From the IMG/VR virus record IMGVR_UViG_3300031841_005609, positions 42,203-106,202 of that record: a DNA stretch of 64,000 bases, one strand, 5' to 3'. This document shows positions 3,255-63,109 of this stretch, piece by piece. The position numbers were made by a program, and so were the translations under genes. The notes below the pieces were generated by a model that saw only the letters and a program-made list of their open reading frames with translations, was not told where the DNA came from and made no database searches. Source of the DNA: a virus. Within the stretch, counting starts at the first letter, position 1. Every line of letters begins with the position of its first letter.

Positions 3255-5753
3255 ATGTCGATCATAAAATTTTCACGTGACAACTTCGAAAATTATGAAC
3301 TAGTCGCTCGACCTGAAAAAGTATTTAGATCATCTTCTGACGGAGGCCTAGAAGGAGATATTCTTCTCATGAAGGATGCTTCTCCGAGCCTGAAAGATAT
3401 TTCTAGAAAAGAAGTCGTAACAAGCTCCATAAAAAAGGGGAAGACCTGGAAAGGTCTAAATCAGTATGATGATTCTGTCTCCGATAGTTTCGTAGACCTT
3501 TTTTCTGCAGGAGGTCCTGCATCAGAAGAAGCCCTTAGACTTGTAAATCAGACAAAAACAGGTCTCAGATACAGAAAGCGTCAGGAGATTTTCAGGACTA
3601 TTCCAGGGACTCAGTTTAACAAAACTTATCTTAAGAAAAGAGTTGTCAAGAATAACTTAATGCCTTACTATAGAGCGTTCTACGAATCTATGGAGTGGGC
3701 TTATACAAACTATCATTGCTTAAACTTTTTTGAAAACACTAACGTTCCTTCTGAGTCTGCTTTGATCTATCCTGCTTTGACAGAATCGTCAGGAGAAAGT
3801 TCATACGCTCCTTCCTCCAGTTTTACGATAGAGTTTTACGTAAAACCGAGAGAAAACAGTGATGCTATAAGGGCAGGCTCAGAAGTTTCTCCTGGAACGA
3901 TACTTCACATGTCATCTTGCTATGCGGTCAGTCTTGTTACAGGTTCTTCTACTGGTCCGGACGGAAAGCCTGATGGGTATAGAGTATTACTTCAACTAAG
4001 TGAAAGCGCGGACATAAACCCATCTAATTGCATAGTCTCAAGTAATCAAGTGTCTGCGGGGAACACGAGCTGTGACAAGAGCTTCATATTCGCCTCATCA
4101 GACAACTCTCTTTCTAGAGATGTTTGGAGTCATGTTGCAATAAGGTGGCCCGGGTCGTCTAACAACATGGGATCGGGTTCTTTTGTAATTAACGGAAAGA
4201 AAGATTCTGATTTTGTAATAACATCTTCTATTGTCATGCAGACAACCACATCTATTGGCTCTAACCTAGGTAATCCTGATGCTGTTTTTATCGGAAACTA
4301 TTTTAGCGGAGAAAATTCAGGAAACTCTACAATCGCTAGGTTCTTTAACAATACTGCAGGAAGAGACGAAGGTGTTTCTCCGATCCTCAGTGGAGCACTA
4401 GGCGATATCGCAGATCCCGTTGGTTTCAAGTTCACTTCTCCTCTAAGGGCTGAGCTTCACGAAATAAAGATATTTGATAAATTTAGAAGCTTGCCCAATA
4501 TCAACAAAGATATGAAAACCGGCGTGAGCAAGATCGGATCAAGTCTTAAGTTTTATGTACCACCTTTCTTTATAAAGGAATCTAGAAGGAGAAACATTCT
4601 TCAGACTCCGTTTTTCACAGAGGTCGGTAAGACTGATGATCCTTTTAACATTCCTCTTTCTTTTGGACTTGGGTCTTTAGACATAAACGTCGAAAATTTC
4701 GTGAGAGAGATGGTTAAAAAAGAGTACCCAAGGCTCTGGAATTTAACAGCATCTGCTGACAACTCAGTAGCTTACGAAGAGGGGAAGACTTCAAACGATG
4801 TAATCTATGGTCGACAGGGTTCTGCTAGAAAAAGGTTGAGAACAGTAATGCCCTGTGATAACGGAATGTTCTATCCTGACTTTTCTTTTTTAAAGACTGG
4901 ATCGAACAGCTCGAGCAAGTTCACAGACAGCTATGGTTCTACTAGACTTGACCTAATAAGTCTGGAATCTATGGTGACTCCTAGCACTCTGTTAAAGGAT
5001 CTTGCCATCTTGGACGACTCTATATCTAGGACTCCCGGAGGAGATGGTTCTTTAGTGGGGGGACCTGCCTGGGGACAGATATCTGACGAAGGTTCCTCTC
5101 CTTTCGGCCCGAAATACTTTTTAAATGATCTTGTCGGAGCAAACCCACAGGACCCATCACTAGCCCCGGGAGCAATTCTTTCAGTCCTGCAAAGAACTGG
5201 AGACCCAAGCTCGAGTGAAGTTGTGATGTTTGATATATCCAATATGTTTTACGGAGATTCGATCACACCAGGCTCTCTTTTGATAGAAGATTTAGCACCA
5301 ACGGGATCTGAGGGAAGCTTTACTTTAAAGGTAAGAGATAACTCATATGGTAATCTATACAGGGCTGATGTGAAGAATCCCGAGAAGGCAGCAAGGTGGG
5401 CGTCTGTCGGTAACGTTTTTTACGAAGAAGGAATCGTGCTAATCAAGTCTCCTCATCTAGCTTTTTTCGGAAAAGAAGACTTTAGAATAACTTTCAAGGG
5501 AGAGAAAACTGTTTACGTTCTCGAGATAATTGTACCAGTCGAAGCTTCAAAGCATAATTCCTCATCAAACCCCACATACAAAGATCTGTCTCCCACAGAC
5601 TATTCTAACGAGACCTCCAGAAAATTTACGTACATATCGTCTATTAACTTACATGATGACAATCTTAATGTTATAGGGAAAGCAAATTTAAGTCAGCCTT
5701 TCTTGAAAAGAAACGAAGACAAAGTCGTCATAAAGTTAAGGATGGATTTTTGA
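3255..5753 (+). CDS. LamG/concanavalin-like domain virion protein
   Basis: LamG-type strands (SFTIEFYVKP, WSHVAIRW, VFIGNY, LHEIKIFD) plus the same C-terminal module (SSSNPTY...ISSINLHD...KANLSQP..IKLRMDF). Confidence 0.6.
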   Translation: MSIIKFSRDNFENYELVARPEKVFRSSSDGGLEGDILLMKDASPSLKDISRKEVVTSSIKKGKTWKGLNQYDDSVSDSFVDLFSAGGPASEEALRLVNQTKTGLRYRKRQEIFRTIPGTQFNKTYLKKRVVKNNLMPYYRAFYESMEWAYTNYHCLNFFENTNVPSESALIYPALTESSGESSYAPSSSFTIEFYVKPRENSDAIRAGSEVSPGTILHMSSCYAVSLVTGSSTGPDGKPDGYRVLLQLSESADINPSNCIVSSNQVSAGNTSCDKSFIFASSDNSLSRDVWSHVAIRWPGSSNNMGSGSFVINGKKDSDFVITSSIVMQTTTSIGSNLGNPDAVFIGNYFSGENSGNSTIARFFNNTAGRDEGVSPILSGALGDIADPVGFKFTSPLRAELHEIKIFDKFRSLPNINKDMKTGVSKIGSSLKFYVPPFFIKESRRRNILQTPFFTEVGKTDDPFNIPLSFGLGSLDINVENFVREMVKKEYPRLWNLTASADNSVAYEEGKTSNDVIYGRQGSARKRLRTVMPCDNGMFYPDFSFLKTGSNSSSKFTDSYGSTRLDLISLESMVTPSTLLKDLAILDDSISRTPGGDGSLVGGPAWGQISDEGSSPFGPKYFLNDLVGANPQDPSLAPGAILSVLQRTGDPSSSEVVMFDISNMFYGDSITPGSLLIEDLAPTGSEGSFTLKVRDNSYGNLYRADVKNPEKAARWASVGNVFYEEGIVLIKSPHLAFFGKEDFRITFKGEKTVYVLEIIVPVEASKHNSSSNPTYKDLSPTDYSNETSRKFTYISSINLHDDNLNVIGKANLSQPFLKRNEDKVVIKLRMDF

Positions 5754-61927: not shown

Positions 61928-62386
61928 ATGTATCGAGTAGAAAACAAATGGAAACCACCCCGATCTCCTATCGGCATGCTGCAAGAAGATATGTGGCCCG
62001 ATGAGTGGAAGATCCTTGTTGTGTGTTCACTTCACAACCAAACTTCACGCAAGCAAGTAGACAAGGTTTACGAAGAACTATTCGAAACATACCCAAATCC
62101 CACGGCGATGTCCGAAGCGGTTCATGAAGAACTAGTCCAGATCATTCGCCCACTGGGGTTCTATAATCGTAGGGCCCGCGCCCTCGTTCGCATGTCCAAA
62201 GATTTCCTGGAAAAAGATTGGAACCGCGCTTCCGAACTTTACGGGTGCGGAAAGTACGCGGATGATTGTTACCGAGTTTTTTGTACGGGTGAGTGGCAAT
62301 CTGTAGAACCAACAGATCACTCTCTCAATGATTACGTTGATTGGATGAGAAAGAATCACGATAAACAATGCAGGGAACTAAGATAG
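61928..62386 (+). CDS. HhH-GPD DNA glycosylase, MBD4-like
   Basis: WKPPRSP..LQE..W..L...NQT, PLG.Y..RA, ELYGCGKYADD.YR.FC..W..V.P.DH.L..Y..W matches the MBD4 catalytic domain pattern. Confidence 0.88.
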   Translation: MYRVENKWKPPRSPIGMLQEDMWPDEWKILVVCSLHNQTSRKQVDKVYEELFETYPNPTAMSEAVHEELVQIIRPLGFYNRRARALVRMSKDFLEKDWNRASELYGCGKYADDCYRVFCTGEWQSVEPTDHSLNDYVDWMRKNHDKQCRELR

Positions 62387-62395
62387 GACTAAAAC

Positions 62396-62512
62396 AGGAG
62401 TGAGGCGGTATTACGCAGGGTTCTACTGAGACGATATACGACCCGGTCCGAGGAATGAGAGTCTTACAAGGGAATACTCGGCCACTTGCAGGTGAGAACC
62501 CTGTCACTCCTT
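62396..62512 (+). ncRNA. tRNA-like RNA with expanded anticodon loop and long variable arm
   Basis: Acceptor AGGAGTG/CACTCCT; D-arm GCG/CGC; stem GGGTT/GACCC; arm CCGAG/CTCGG; T-arm GCAGG-TGAGAAC-CCTGT. Confidence 0.6.
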
Positions 62513-62574
62513 CTTTTTGGTATATTTGCATGCTGCGTTCGATATATTTATCTTTACGATCCGGAGGTTAAACG

Positions 62575-62880
62575 ATGAAAATCACAAAGCGACAACTTAG
62601 AAATATTATCAGAGAAGCAATGGACTACGATCCGCTTGGAGATGGTGGCGTTCCTCATGTCGGCGCTGGTCCCAAGTATGCCTTGGCCTTTGTCGATGCC
62701 GCATATGGTGACCGAAGAATGGAATTGGTCGTCAGAGAAGAGGATATGGAACTGGCTCGCGAGGTGATGAAAAAGATGCGAAAGCAAGGCCAGGTATCAG
62801 GTGTGCAACCGACTCGACAAAAGTTTGATCCACGTGATGTCACCACTAGAGAAGATTTGGAGAGAATGCTAAGAACATGA
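62575..62880 (+). CDS. Small protein with MKITKRQLRNIIRE N-terminal motif
   Basis: ATATTTAT at 62544; SD GGAGG. Confidence 0.8.
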   Translation: MKITKRQLRNIIREAMDYDPLGDGGVPHVGAGPKYALAFVDAAYGDRRMELVVREEDMELAREVMKKMRKQGQVSGVQPTRQKFDPRDVTTREDLERMLRT

Positions 62881-62942
62881 AAATCATGCGCTAAAGTACT
62901 CTCCCCCTTTTGTCAAATAAAACCCTTCAAAACACTTTTCTC

Positions 62943-62972
62943 TTGTAAATACATCTACTCCCGAAATATAAT
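62943..62972 (+). promoter_or_regulatory. Sigma70-like promoter TTGTAA-18-TATAAT
   Basis: Near-consensus hexamers with an AT-rich upstream region. Confidence 0.65.
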
Positions 62973-62979
62973 TTTATCA

Positions 62980-63096
62980 AATGAAGTTACCCCGATTGTA
63001 AGGATGAAGCGGGAGAGGGATAAACTCCATGATTGCTAATCTGCGGGTGGGGCTGGAAACAGTCAGTTAGGTGGTCTGGTTGCCTAACACCTTTTT
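62980..63096 (+). ncRNA. Candidate structured leader or small RNA
   Basis: GC-rich non-coding stretch with three helices, a GAAA tetraloop and a terminator-like end. Confidence 0.45.
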
Positions 63097-63109
63097 GGGA
63101 GAGAAGAAA

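What the first reader, a model, noticed from the sequence alone, without database searches (positions are those of the whole stretch)
62396..62518. Non-canonical tRNA-mimic RNA with possible compensatory elbow changes and an alternative fold
Seen: a perfect 7-bp acceptor stem stacked on a 5-bp/7-nt T-arm, a 3-bp D-arm, a 5-bp anticodon-position stem closing a 17-nt loop, and a ~43-nt variable region with a CCGAG/CTCGG helix. The T-loop is TGAGAAC instead of TTCRA, and the D-loop (GTATTA) lacks the usual GG, consistent with a rewired elbow. No CCA is encoded, and a T-rich tract follows. GCAGGGTTCT (62415-62424) can alternatively pair with AGAACCCTGT (62495-62504) to form a rod. Established: T4 makes tRNA-like stable species I/II RNAs of unknown role. 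Inference: a non-decoding tRNA mimic, e.g. a decoy for anticodon nucleases or processing enzymes, or a bistable RNA.
Basis: partly seen in the sequence, partly recalled or inferred. Interest (0 to 1): 0.7.

Follow-up and report, generated by a model that had tools for sequence, protein, structure and literature searches.

The report
Non-decoding tRNA-shaped phage RNA module
The 117-base stretch is a real, conserved RNA of uncultured marine phages that folds like a long-armed tRNA but cannot read codons. The same module also sits in phage tRNA clusters, behind early promoters and inside phage tmRNA genes, and its job is unknown.

Summary
One correction: the 3' acceptor strand is 62505-62511, not 62506-62512. 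On its own the window copy is not convincing (fold z = -0.9; ARAGORN and Rfam find nothing). Pattern scans recovered about 83 distinct copies (68 unique sequences) in marine viral and metagenome contigs, none in GenBank phages or GTDB genomes.

All five cloverleaf helices carry compensatory changes (acceptor 7/7 pairs, D 1/3, anticodon-position 2/5, extra arm 5/7, T 3/5; 97% of cells paired). The alternative rod has none and is broken in most copies, so the tRNA-shaped fold is the conserved one. The T loop varies freely, canonical TTCAAAT included, against a constant D loop, so a "compensated elbow" is not supported.

The module occurs in four settings:
- directly behind sigma70-type promoters and before a leader/terminator module;
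- in phage tRNA arrays;
- as a clean insertion in a hairpin loop of phage tmRNA genes;
- as in this window, followed by a T-run and an inserted ORF cassette that separates it from its usual downstream partner (62977-63098).

The best reading is a stable, non-decoding, class-II-tRNA-derived RNA acting through two conserved loops. The function is inferred, not shown. The scan noted a member of this family before on other DNA (e1-5982686).

The parts
62396..62512 (+). tRNA-shaped RNA module (domain 1), with T62512 at the discriminator position.
   Evidence: Scores 142 bits against model R1, built from 68 unique homologues. The cloverleaf is 97% paired, with 19 pairs changed on both sides.
62396..62402 (+). 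Acceptor-like stem, 5' strand. It pairs with 62505-62511.
   Evidence: All 7 pairs show compensatory changes across the family.
62405..62416 (+). Short D-like arm: 3-bp stem GCG/CGC and 6-nt loop GTATTA without GG.
   Evidence: C-G changes to U-A in 4 copies. It reads ACG/CGU in the diverged copy L191.
62418..62444 (+). Anticodon-position arm: 5-bp stem closing a 17-nt loop (62423-62439). The loop's 5' part CTACTGA is conserved.
   Evidence: G-C changes to A-U at two pairs (L103, L109), and the stem reads GAGUU/GACUU in L191. The loop stays conserved in copies found by patterns that did not include it.
62446..62483 (+). Long extra (variable) arm: 7-bp stem (one mismatch in the window) and a 24-nt conserved loop (62453-62476).
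   Evidence: 5 of 7 pairs carry compensatory changes.
62488..62504 (+). T-like arm: 5-bp stem and 7-nt loop TGAGAAC. G62488-T62504 is a wobble pair.
   Evidence: 3 of 5 pairs are compensated, e.g. GCAGG/CCTGC to GTGGG/CCCAC and ATAGG/CCTAT. The loop consensus is U-N-N-R-A-A-Y.
62505..62511 (+). Acceptor-like stem, 3' strand.
62512..62976 (+). Inserted cassette that separates domain 1 from domain 2. It holds a T-run (62512-62518), a conserved 5' UTR, a 101-aa ORF (62575-62880) and a promoter-like site TTGTAA-18-TATAAT (62943-62972).
   Evidence: Relatives join 62511 directly to 62977. Contigs in public runs skip 465-466 nt at this place. The same cassette follows the element in L040 (3218 copy), L092 and other copies.
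62977..63098 (+). Domain 2, the usual downstream partner. It is a leader module with hairpin ACCCCG/CGGGT, a polymorphic 42-nt insert, CTGGAAACAG, and terminator 63066-63088 plus a T-run, just before the RBS of ORF 63110.
   Evidence: It is contiguous with domain 1 in about 50 of 83 instances, and it also occurs alone behind homologous promoters.
61928..62386 (+). Upstream HhH-GPD glycosylase gene. Its stop codon lies 9 nt before the element.
   Evidence: Pfam PF00730, E = 2.7e-12. Homology with the closest relative L002 ends at 62353, and L002 lacks the element.

Best explanation
The stretch 62396-62512 is one copy of a conserved RNA module of uncultured marine phages that is not in any catalogue searched here.

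Shown:
- It folds as a degenerate class II tRNA: a 7-bp acceptor stem stacked on a 5-bp T arm with a 7-nt T-loop-type loop, a 3-bp D stem, a 5-bp anticodon-position stem and a long extra arm.
- The anticodon loop is blown up to 17 nt and the D loop has no GG, so it cannot decode.
- The fold is under selection.
- The module is portable. It sits at the 5' end of early-type transcripts, in tRNA arrays, and in the loop of a pseudoknot hairpin of phage tmRNA.
- In this window it lies right after a glycosylase gene, and an inserted ORF cassette cuts it off from its usual leader partner.

Inferred mechanism:
- The tRNA frame serves as a scaffold. It lets the RNA be cut out or ended precisely and makes it stable. 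The 5' end would come from transcription start or RNase P; the 3' end from RNase E/Z-type cleavage or, in this window, from termination at the T-run.
- The two conserved loops, which can pair with each other, form the working surface. That surface would bind a host or phage factor in trans, as a decoy or sponge for a tRNA-binding or RNA-binding protein.
For: - Homologues: pattern scans of IMG/VR and JGI metagenomes gave about 83 distinct instances and 68 unique sequences.
- Structure: the cloverleaf is 97.0% paired against 91.5% in shuffles. 19 pairs change on both sides, and the covariation score is 0.243 against 0.139 (0 of 500 shuffles reach it). Every helix is compensated.
- A diverged tmRNA-borne copy (L191, 87.6 bits) compensates the acceptor, D and anticodon-position stems again.
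- tRNA likeness: the next-best hits of model R1 are real tRNAs. Acceptor plus T stem give 7 + 5 bp. The T loop keeps U at position 1 and A at position 5 in nearly all copies. A 3-bp GCG/CGC D stem and a GCAGG..CCTGC T arm are shared with a 93-nt long-armed tRNA-like gene of related phages.
- Loops: the two loops are conserved in copies found by patterns that did not include them. Loop-to-loop pairing reads AGAY/RUCU, with the pair at A2 columns 43/73 as CG 32, UG 22, UA 13 and other 1. In L191 it becomes CUGAC/GUCAG.
- Portability: there are tRNA arrays of 4-15 tRNAs on the same strand. Element-bearing tmRNAs are 460-490 nt, while 17 sister tmRNAs of 332-372 nt have a 7-nt loop at exactly that spot.
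- Promoters: 30 of 74 instances have a promoter matching at least 10 of 12 consensus positions within 60 nt, against 0.4% of shuffled flanks. In 23 of those 30 the -10 box ends 5-7 nt before acceptor base 1.
Against: - No expression, processing or binding data exist. The RNA-library material is assembled contigs only, and some include the -10 box.
- This window's copy has no recognisable promoter. Its T stem is weakened (G-T), and its minimum-energy fold is the rod, so this particular copy may be less functional than its relatives.
- Loop conservation is partly an effect of how copies were found: the metagenome pattern required both loops.
- Support for the loop-to-loop pairing rests on few independent changes.
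- Truncated copies exist (L076, L151), as expected for a module that also decays.
- The copies are closely related (84% mean column identity), so counts of compensatory cells overstate the number of independent events.
Confidence: 0.5

Rival explanations
1. It is a cis-acting structural module. The tRNA-shaped fold at the very 5' end of early transcripts, or between genes, protects the RNA from 5'-end-dependent decay, or it marks processing sites that separate transcript segments. It has no trans-acting role.
For: The predicted transcription start coincides with acceptor base 1 in 23 of 30 promoter-bearing instances. The module always lies on the coding strand upstream of genes or between RNA genes.
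Against: - The downstream genes are unrelated from locus to locus.
- The same module sits inside tmRNA and tRNA arrays, where no mRNA needs protecting.
- A purely structural cap does not explain the strong sequence conservation of two loops.
- Domain 2 functions without the module behind homologous promoters.
Confidence: 0.22
2. It is a selfish or relic sequence: a decayed class II tRNA gene carried around by cassette recombination in hyperplastic regions, of no use to the phage.
For: - Placement is mosaic. The closest relatives of both flanking genes lack it.
- It is present or absent at homologous promoters and in homologous tmRNAs.
- Truncated copies exist.
Against: Compensatory changes in all five helices and conserved loops show purifying selection on the RNA fold. 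The element is better conserved than the tmRNA sequences that carry it.
Confidence: 0.12
3. It is a bistable RNA or a large intrinsic terminator. The rod (62415-62424 with 62495-62504) closed by the acceptor stem and followed by TCTTTTT ends transcription of the glycosylase gene, or it switches with the cloverleaf.
For: The rod is the minimum-energy fold of the window copy. It is within about 1-1.5 kcal/mol of the cloverleaf in the TGAGAAC-loop subgroup. A T-run follows in 8 instances.
Against: - The rod helix has 0 compensatory changes, and 3 of its 8 pairs are often broken.
- The cloverleaf is more stable in 66 of 68 copies, by 7.5 kcal/mol on average.
- When the anticodon-position stem changes, the cloverleaf partner follows and the rod partner does not.
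- The T-run belongs to the inserted cassette and is absent from most copies.
Confidence: 0.08
4. It is a working tRNA with unusual loops, or a Y-RNA-like partner of a Ro (TROVE) protein.
For: It is cloverleaf-shaped and some copies have a canonical T arm. Jumbo phages with Ro/TROVE proteins and tRNA-like partners are described in PMC7824862.
Against: - The loop is 17 nt, against the 7 nt of a tRNA anticodon loop (own knowledge for the tRNA standard). A8 replaces U8, and there is no G18/G19.
- ARAGORN and the Rfam tRNA and other models are silent even at E up to 10.
- No TROVE gene is found in four records, including a 92%-complete genome with two copies.
- The 5' and 3' ends form the acceptor stem, unlike the topology of bacterial Y RNA (own knowledge).
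Confidence: 0.03

Closest known systems
Bacteriophage T4 species 1 RNA (rnaC, 139 nt; AF158101 70908-71046) and species 2 RNA (rnaD)
   Same: Both are phage-encoded, non-decoding RNAs of 115-140 nt. Both have a closing stem next to a T arm plus oversized extra arms. T4 rnaC has CCGGGTTCGAATCCCGG directly before its 3' strand. Relatives of this element lie in tRNA gene clusters, as rnaC and rnaD do. The function is unknown in both cases.
   Different: There is no sequence similarity and the arm layout differs. This family also occurs behind promoters and inside tmRNA genes, which I do not know of for the T4 RNAs. No CCA or processing data exist here.
Class II (long-variable-arm) bacterial and phage tRNAs (Leu, Ser, Tyr; Rfam RF00005)
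   Same: The order and sizes of the helices match: 7-bp acceptor, 3-bp D stem, 5-bp anticodon stem, long extra arm, 5-bp T stem with a 7-nt loop. Real tRNAs are the next-best hits of the family's model.
   Different: The anticodon-position loop is 17 nt. There is no U8, G18 or G19. T-loop positions 2-3 vary freely. The extra arm is about 38 nt with a conserved 24-nt loop. tRNA finders do not detect it.
tmRNA (RF00023): the pseudoknot region as a site of variable inserts
   Same: In eight instances the module is part of a tmRNA gene that Rfam recognises end to end. Domain 2 of the window begins with a hairpin (AATGAAGTTACCCCG..CGGGTGGG) that looks like the tmRNA hairpin carrying the insert (AATGGTTACCCCA..TGGGTGG).
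   Different: The module is not the tRNA-like domain of tmRNA. It has no G3-U70, no tag reading frame and no CCA. It is an extra branch that sister tmRNAs lack.
Bacterial Y RNA (YrlA) with Ro/Rsr
   Same: Both are tRNA-mimicking non-coding RNAs, and YrlA is also found in some phages (own knowledge; PMC7824862).
   Different: No Rfam match, no TROVE gene in the genomes searched, and a different topology.
Engineered tRNA scaffolds for expressing structured RNAs (own knowledge)
   Same: Both use a tRNA frame that carries foreign, structured loop payloads and relies on tRNA-like stability and processing.
   Different: This is only an analogy for the proposed mechanism. The element is natural and nothing here was tested.

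Membership tests
Canonical tRNA (RF00005) | Detected by tRNA finders or covariance models | tested here: not met
   ARAGORN found 0 genes in the window, and it did not call the element as a tRNA in any homologous locus; there it reported only other tRNA and tmRNA genes. Rfam gave no match even at E up to 10 on 400-520-nt stretches.
Canonical tRNA (RF00005) | 7-nt anticodon loop with U33 and a readable anticodon | tested here: not met
   The loop is 17 nt in the window and in nearly all copies, and 22 nt in L191.
Canonical tRNA (RF00005) | 7-bp acceptor stem stacked on a 5-bp T stem with a 7-nt T loop | tested here: met
   Both stems carry compensatory changes, and the loop consensus is U-N-N-R-A-A-Y.
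Canonical tRNA (RF00005) | Elbow nucleotides G18 G19 with T54-psi55-C56, plus U8 and A14 | tested here: not met
   Position 8 is A, and the D loop GTATTA has no GG. T-loop positions 2-3 vary (GA, TC, TT, AA, GG) with no matching change in the D loop.
Canonical tRNA (RF00005) | 3' CCA, encoded or added | tested here: inconclusive
   It is not encoded in any copy, whereas neighbouring real tRNAs in the arrays do encode it. Addition after transcription cannot be tested with contigs.
T4 species 1/2-type phage tRNA-like stable RNAs | Non-decoding RNA with acceptor-like stem and T arm, encoded among phage tRNA genes | tested here: met
   About 12 instances lie in arrays of 4-15 tRNAs on the same strand. 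The window copy itself is not in an array.
T4 species 1/2-type phage tRNA-like stable RNAs | Sequence homology to rnaC or rnaD | tested here: not met
   Only chance 7-9-nt matches were found.
T4 species 1/2-type phage tRNA-like stable RNAs | Accumulates as a discrete stable RNA processed by the tRNA maturation enzymes | not testable with these tools
   Only assembled contigs of RNA libraries were available.
Bacterial Y RNA (YrlA) / Ro system | Ro/TROVE protein gene in the same genome | tested here: not met
   PF05731 is absent from G000, G001 (92% complete, 2 copies of the element), G002 and G005. The controls ring.
tmRNA tRNA-like domain | G3-U70 alanine identity, encoded CCA end, and an associated tag reading frame | tested here: not met
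   The third acceptor pair is G-C or A-U, and there is no CCA. In tmRNA-borne copies the tmRNA's own ends supply these features.
Riboswitch or cis-regulatory leader | Constant association with one gene class and coupling to an expression platform | tested here: not met
   Downstream genes differ from locus to locus. The module occurs without domain 2 (tRNA arrays, tmRNA, this window), and domain 2 occurs without the module.
Intrinsic terminator | Stable hairpin directly followed by a U-run, conserved as such | tested here: not met
   The T-run follows in only 8 of 83 instances. The terminator scan does not call it.

The most novel reading that the evidence does not exclude
The module is a natural "tRNA scaffold" cassette. 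It would be a portable tRNA-shaped RNA that the host's RNase P and RNase Z/E cut out of whatever transcript carries it, including phage tmRNA. That cut would leave the tmRNA in two base-paired pieces. The released particle would have two loops kissing to form a binding site that titrates a host tRNA-binding or defence factor early in infection.
Probability: 0.15. Interest if true: 0.85.

Novelty: new variant of a known kind. Interest (0 to 1): 0.6.

Why it matters
Phage-encoded tRNA look-alikes have been known since the T4 species 1 and 2 RNAs, and their role is still open. This family gives that question an unusually good handle:
- There are dozens of natural variants with compensatory changes that fix the fold.
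- Two conserved loops point to a specific partner.
- The natural presence/absence pairs amount to ready-made controls. Examples are the same promoter with and without the module, and sister tmRNAs with a 7-nt loop or the whole module at one spot.

A tRNA-shaped domain plugged into the pseudoknot region of tmRNA is, as far as I know, not described. It would interest people who work on trans-translation and on RNA modularity.

The family is in neither Rfam 15 nor the GenBank phage collection searched here, so it is also a candidate new RNA family.

Tried and rejected
- ARAGORN and Rfam found nothing on the element. Rfam was run both at gathering scores and at E up to 10.
- blastn against 50,697 GenBank phages gave no match.
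- The loop pattern gave no match in one genome each of 185,579 GTDB species.
- Flanking-protein searches showed that the nearest relatives of both neighbouring genes (L002, L011) lack the element. Synteny therefore gave no homologues.
- The first exact 20-mer scan found nothing.
- Most hits of the rod-arm pattern were an unrelated 82-nt palindromic stretch, set aside.
- RNA-library runs X15-X18 are assembled contigs only. They hold relatives of domains 1 and 2, but some contigs include the promoter -10 box. They give no verdict on transcription, ends or CCA.
- T4 rnaC/rnaD show no sequence similarity.
- The Ro/TROVE partner idea was dropped because no such gene was found. A CCA-adding enzyme (PF01743) is present in only one of four records, so nothing follows from it.
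- Target-site duplication: an ATTGTAT repeat flanks the module in L058, but other copies do not repeat the pattern. It is not taken as evidence of transposition.
- The alignment with the L071 tmRNA was too divergent to place the insert. One search replaced it.
- ORFs in the element: a 68-aa minus-strand ORF, and an ATG-initiated plus-strand frame that exists only in the window copy. Relatives have TAA where the window has ATG.
- The Pfam search of the 101-aa cassette ORF gave no family.

Full report
**Setting.** The window is the last 64 kb of a 106-kb IMG/VR viral contig that CheckV estimates at 38% complete. Its capsid protein is most like that of T4-related myoviruses such as Flavobacterium phage immuto (43% identity). 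All genes near the finding are on the plus strand. The finding lies between an HhH-GPD glycosylase gene (61928-62386; Pfam E = 2.7e-12) and a 101-aa ORF with no known family (62575-62880).

**The observation.** There are two small corrections. The 3' acceptor strand is 62505-62511, with T62512 at the discriminator position. The first pair of the T-like stem is a G-T wobble (G62488-T62504).

Taken alone, the copy is unimpressive:
- ViennaRNA's best fold is the rod, not the cloverleaf, and its energy is within one standard deviation of shuffled sequence (z = -0.96 and -0.87).
- ARAGORN finds no tRNA in the window.
- Rfam finds nothing at gathering scores or at E up to 10.

**Finding relatives.** The closest relatives of both flanking genes lack the element.
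- In L002 (glycosylase 96% identical) an Fpg/Nei-like gene follows directly. DNA similarity ends at window 62353.
- In L011 (ORF 91% identical) another gene abuts the ORF.

The element therefore sits at a mosaic junction. DNA pattern scans then found it elsewhere:
- a pattern from the rod arms;
- a pattern from its 5' part;
- a pattern from the structured region after the ORF;
- a pattern made only of the two big loops, run on JGI metagenomes.

Together these gave about 83 distinct instances and 68 unique sequences. There were none among 50,697 GenBank phages or one genome each of 185,579 prokaryote species.

**Which fold is conserved.** On the 68-sequence alignment A2 the cloverleaf is paired in 97.0% of cells, against 91.5% after shuffling. 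Its covariation score is 0.243 against 0.139, and none of 500 shuffles reaches it. Pairs with changes on both sides are found in every helix:

| Helix | Pairs changed on both sides |
|---|---|
| Acceptor | 7 of 7 |
| D | 1 of 3 |
| Anticodon-position | 2 of 5 |
| Extra arm | 5 of 7 |
| T | 3 of 5 |

The rod helix has no such pair and is 83.6% paired. One of its pairs holds in only 9 of 68 copies. When the anticodon-position stem changes (L103, L109), its cloverleaf partner changes with it and its rod partner does not.

Constrained folding makes the cloverleaf more stable than the rod in 66 of 68 copies, by 7.5 kcal/mol on average. The window copy is one of the two exceptions: rod -32.2, cloverleaf -30.6 kcal/mol. 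The reasons are its TGAGAAC loop and the T at 62504.

One caveat applies. The copies are close relatives (84% mean column identity), so many of the compensated cells go back to few events. A more distant copy found later through its tmRNA host (L191, 87.6 bits) independently compensates the acceptor stem, the D stem (ACG/CGU) and the anticodon-position stem (GAGUU/GACUU).

**How tRNA-like it is.** The helix order and sizes are those of a class II tRNA. A covariance model built from the family (R1) finds real phage tRNAs as its next-best hits:
- Leu, Arg, Thr and Met in other jumbo-phage records;
- tRNA-Leu in L126.

About ten copies have the canonical T loop TTCAAAT. A 93-nt long-armed tRNA-like gene beside related phage tmRNAs shares the GGCGG..CGCA D arm and the GCAGG..CCTGC T arm.

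The defining decoding features are missing:
- The loop is 17 nt.
- Position 8 is A.
- The D loop has no GG.
- No CCA is encoded, while neighbouring true tRNAs do encode it.

The T loop varies at positions 2-3 while the D loop stays GTATTA.

**Contexts.**
- *(a) Promoter, element, domain 2.* About 50 instances read promoter, element, short linker, then a second structured module (domain 2) that ends in an intrinsic terminator just before an RBS. The genes after it differ from locus to locus. Thirty of 74 instances have a sigma70-type promoter matching at least 10 of 12 consensus positions within 60 nt, against 0.4% of shuffled flanks. In 23 of those 30 the -10 box ends 5-7 nt before the first acceptor base. 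The transcript would then start at the element's 5' end. Domain 2 also occurs alone behind homologous promoters (L060, L063, L068).
- *(b) tRNA arrays.* About 12 instances lie in arrays of 4-15 phage tRNA genes on the same strand.
- *(c) Inside tmRNA genes.* Eight instances lie inside phage tmRNA genes that Rfam recognises from end to end (84-97 bits; 460-490 nt against a 374-position model). A scan for this tmRNA clade found 17 sister genes of 332-372 nt without the element. The alignment shows that the element replaces the 7-nt loop of one hairpin (ACCCCA..TGGGT) in the pseudoknot region.
- *(d) T-run and ORF cassette.* Eight instances, including the window, have TCTTTTT and an ORF cassette after the element.

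**What is in the window.** In relatives, base 62511 is joined directly to 62977. Contigs in public runs show the same joint, skipping 465-466 nt. So 62512-62976 is an inserted cassette. It brings a T-run, a conserved 5' UTR, the 101-aa ORF and a new promoter-like site (TTGTAA-18-TATAAT, 62943-62972) for domain 2 (62977-63098).

The window's element has no recognisable promoter of its own and starts 9 nt after the glycosylase stop codon. It would be made by read-through and would need 5' processing. The own record holds only this one copy. A 92%-complete 281-kb relative holds two.

**Function.** Nothing here shows function. I favour a trans-acting stable RNA on a tRNA scaffold for three reasons:
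- Selection acts on the fold in all contexts, including ones with no mRNA to regulate.
- Two loops are conserved in sequence even in copies found without reference to them.
- The loops can pair with each other (AGAY with RUCU), and the diverged L191 copy keeps complementarity with different letters (CUGAC with GUCAG).

The rivals are a purely structural cis role, a selfish relic, and a rod or terminator switch, in that order of likelihood. A Ro/Y-RNA reading was tested and dropped because no TROVE gene was found. The paper search turned up no description of this family. A 2023 catalogue of candidate structured RNAs from IMG/VR (PMC10690425) may contain it, but I could not check by sequence.

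**Earlier notes of this scan.**
- One first-reader note on another genome (e1-5982686) describes the same family: the subgroup with GGTAAG/CTTACC in the extra arm, which I saw in tRNA arrays.
- Several follow-up reports describe other, unrelated non-decoding phage tRNA look-alikes and also name T4 rnaC as the closest known.
- Domain 2 of this window was noted separately (e1-6038918).

Noticed in passing
window 62977-63098 (promoter-like site 62943-62972): Domain 2 is a separate, widely reused leader module. It has a hairpin ACCCCG/CGGGT, a small GAAA hairpin and a terminator, followed by an RBS. A 42-nt insert (about 63001-63042) is present in some relatives and absent in others, and in contigs of public runs. 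The start of the module can be read as a mini-ORF (MKLPRL, stop), but the changes seen there keep the hairpin rather than the peptide. Its first hairpin resembles the tmRNA hairpin that carries the tRNA-like insert.
   Followed up: partly
window 62575-62880; L002 1854-2556; L040 about 3400-4000: There is a family of small ORFs that share a nearly identical N-terminus (MKITKRQLR..IIRE) and diverge afterwards. L002 has three tandem copies and L040 two. The window's record has one. No Pfam family matches. The shared 5' ends may serve as recombination points for cassette shuffling.
   Followed up: partly
window 62354 (junction); L002 3427 onward: Similarity to the closest relative stops 33 nt before the glycosylase stop codon. 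In L002 an Fpg/Nei-like gene (MPEGPEVKRM...) follows the glycosylase directly.
   Followed up: partly
L086, L091, L095, L107, L111, L118, L126, L153, L167: The hairpin GGCACACCGGTTAAAGTGTGCC recurs as a spacer between genes in phage tRNA arrays. It may be a processing or termination signal.
   Followed up: no
L186 3615-3707 (-), L198 7179-7271 (-), L200 4352-4444 (+): A 93-nt long-armed "tRNA-Asp(GTC)" by ARAGORN lies about 100 nt after a phage tmRNA. It has G instead of U at position 33. It may be another non-standard tRNA, and it shares its D and T arms with the element.
   Followed up: partly
L074, about 4171-4215 (-): A tRNA 5' half (GCGCCCGTAGCTCAGCTGGATAGAGCA...) ends abruptly a few bases before the element. 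This looks like a recombination scar in a tRNA region.
   Followed up: no
L151 10884-10984 (-); L076 243-346 (-): These are truncated copies of the element. L151 keeps only the 3' half in front of a normal domain 2. L076 (from a giant-virus bin) loses part of the big loop and the T arm.
   Followed up: partly
L189 (G001), L193 (G003) and other loci: Many large marine phages, including relatives of this one, encode a complete one-piece tmRNA of 332-372 nt.
   Followed up: partly
window 63066-63098 and 62512-62520: Both structured modules end with the same tail, C-TTTTT-GG.
   Followed up: no
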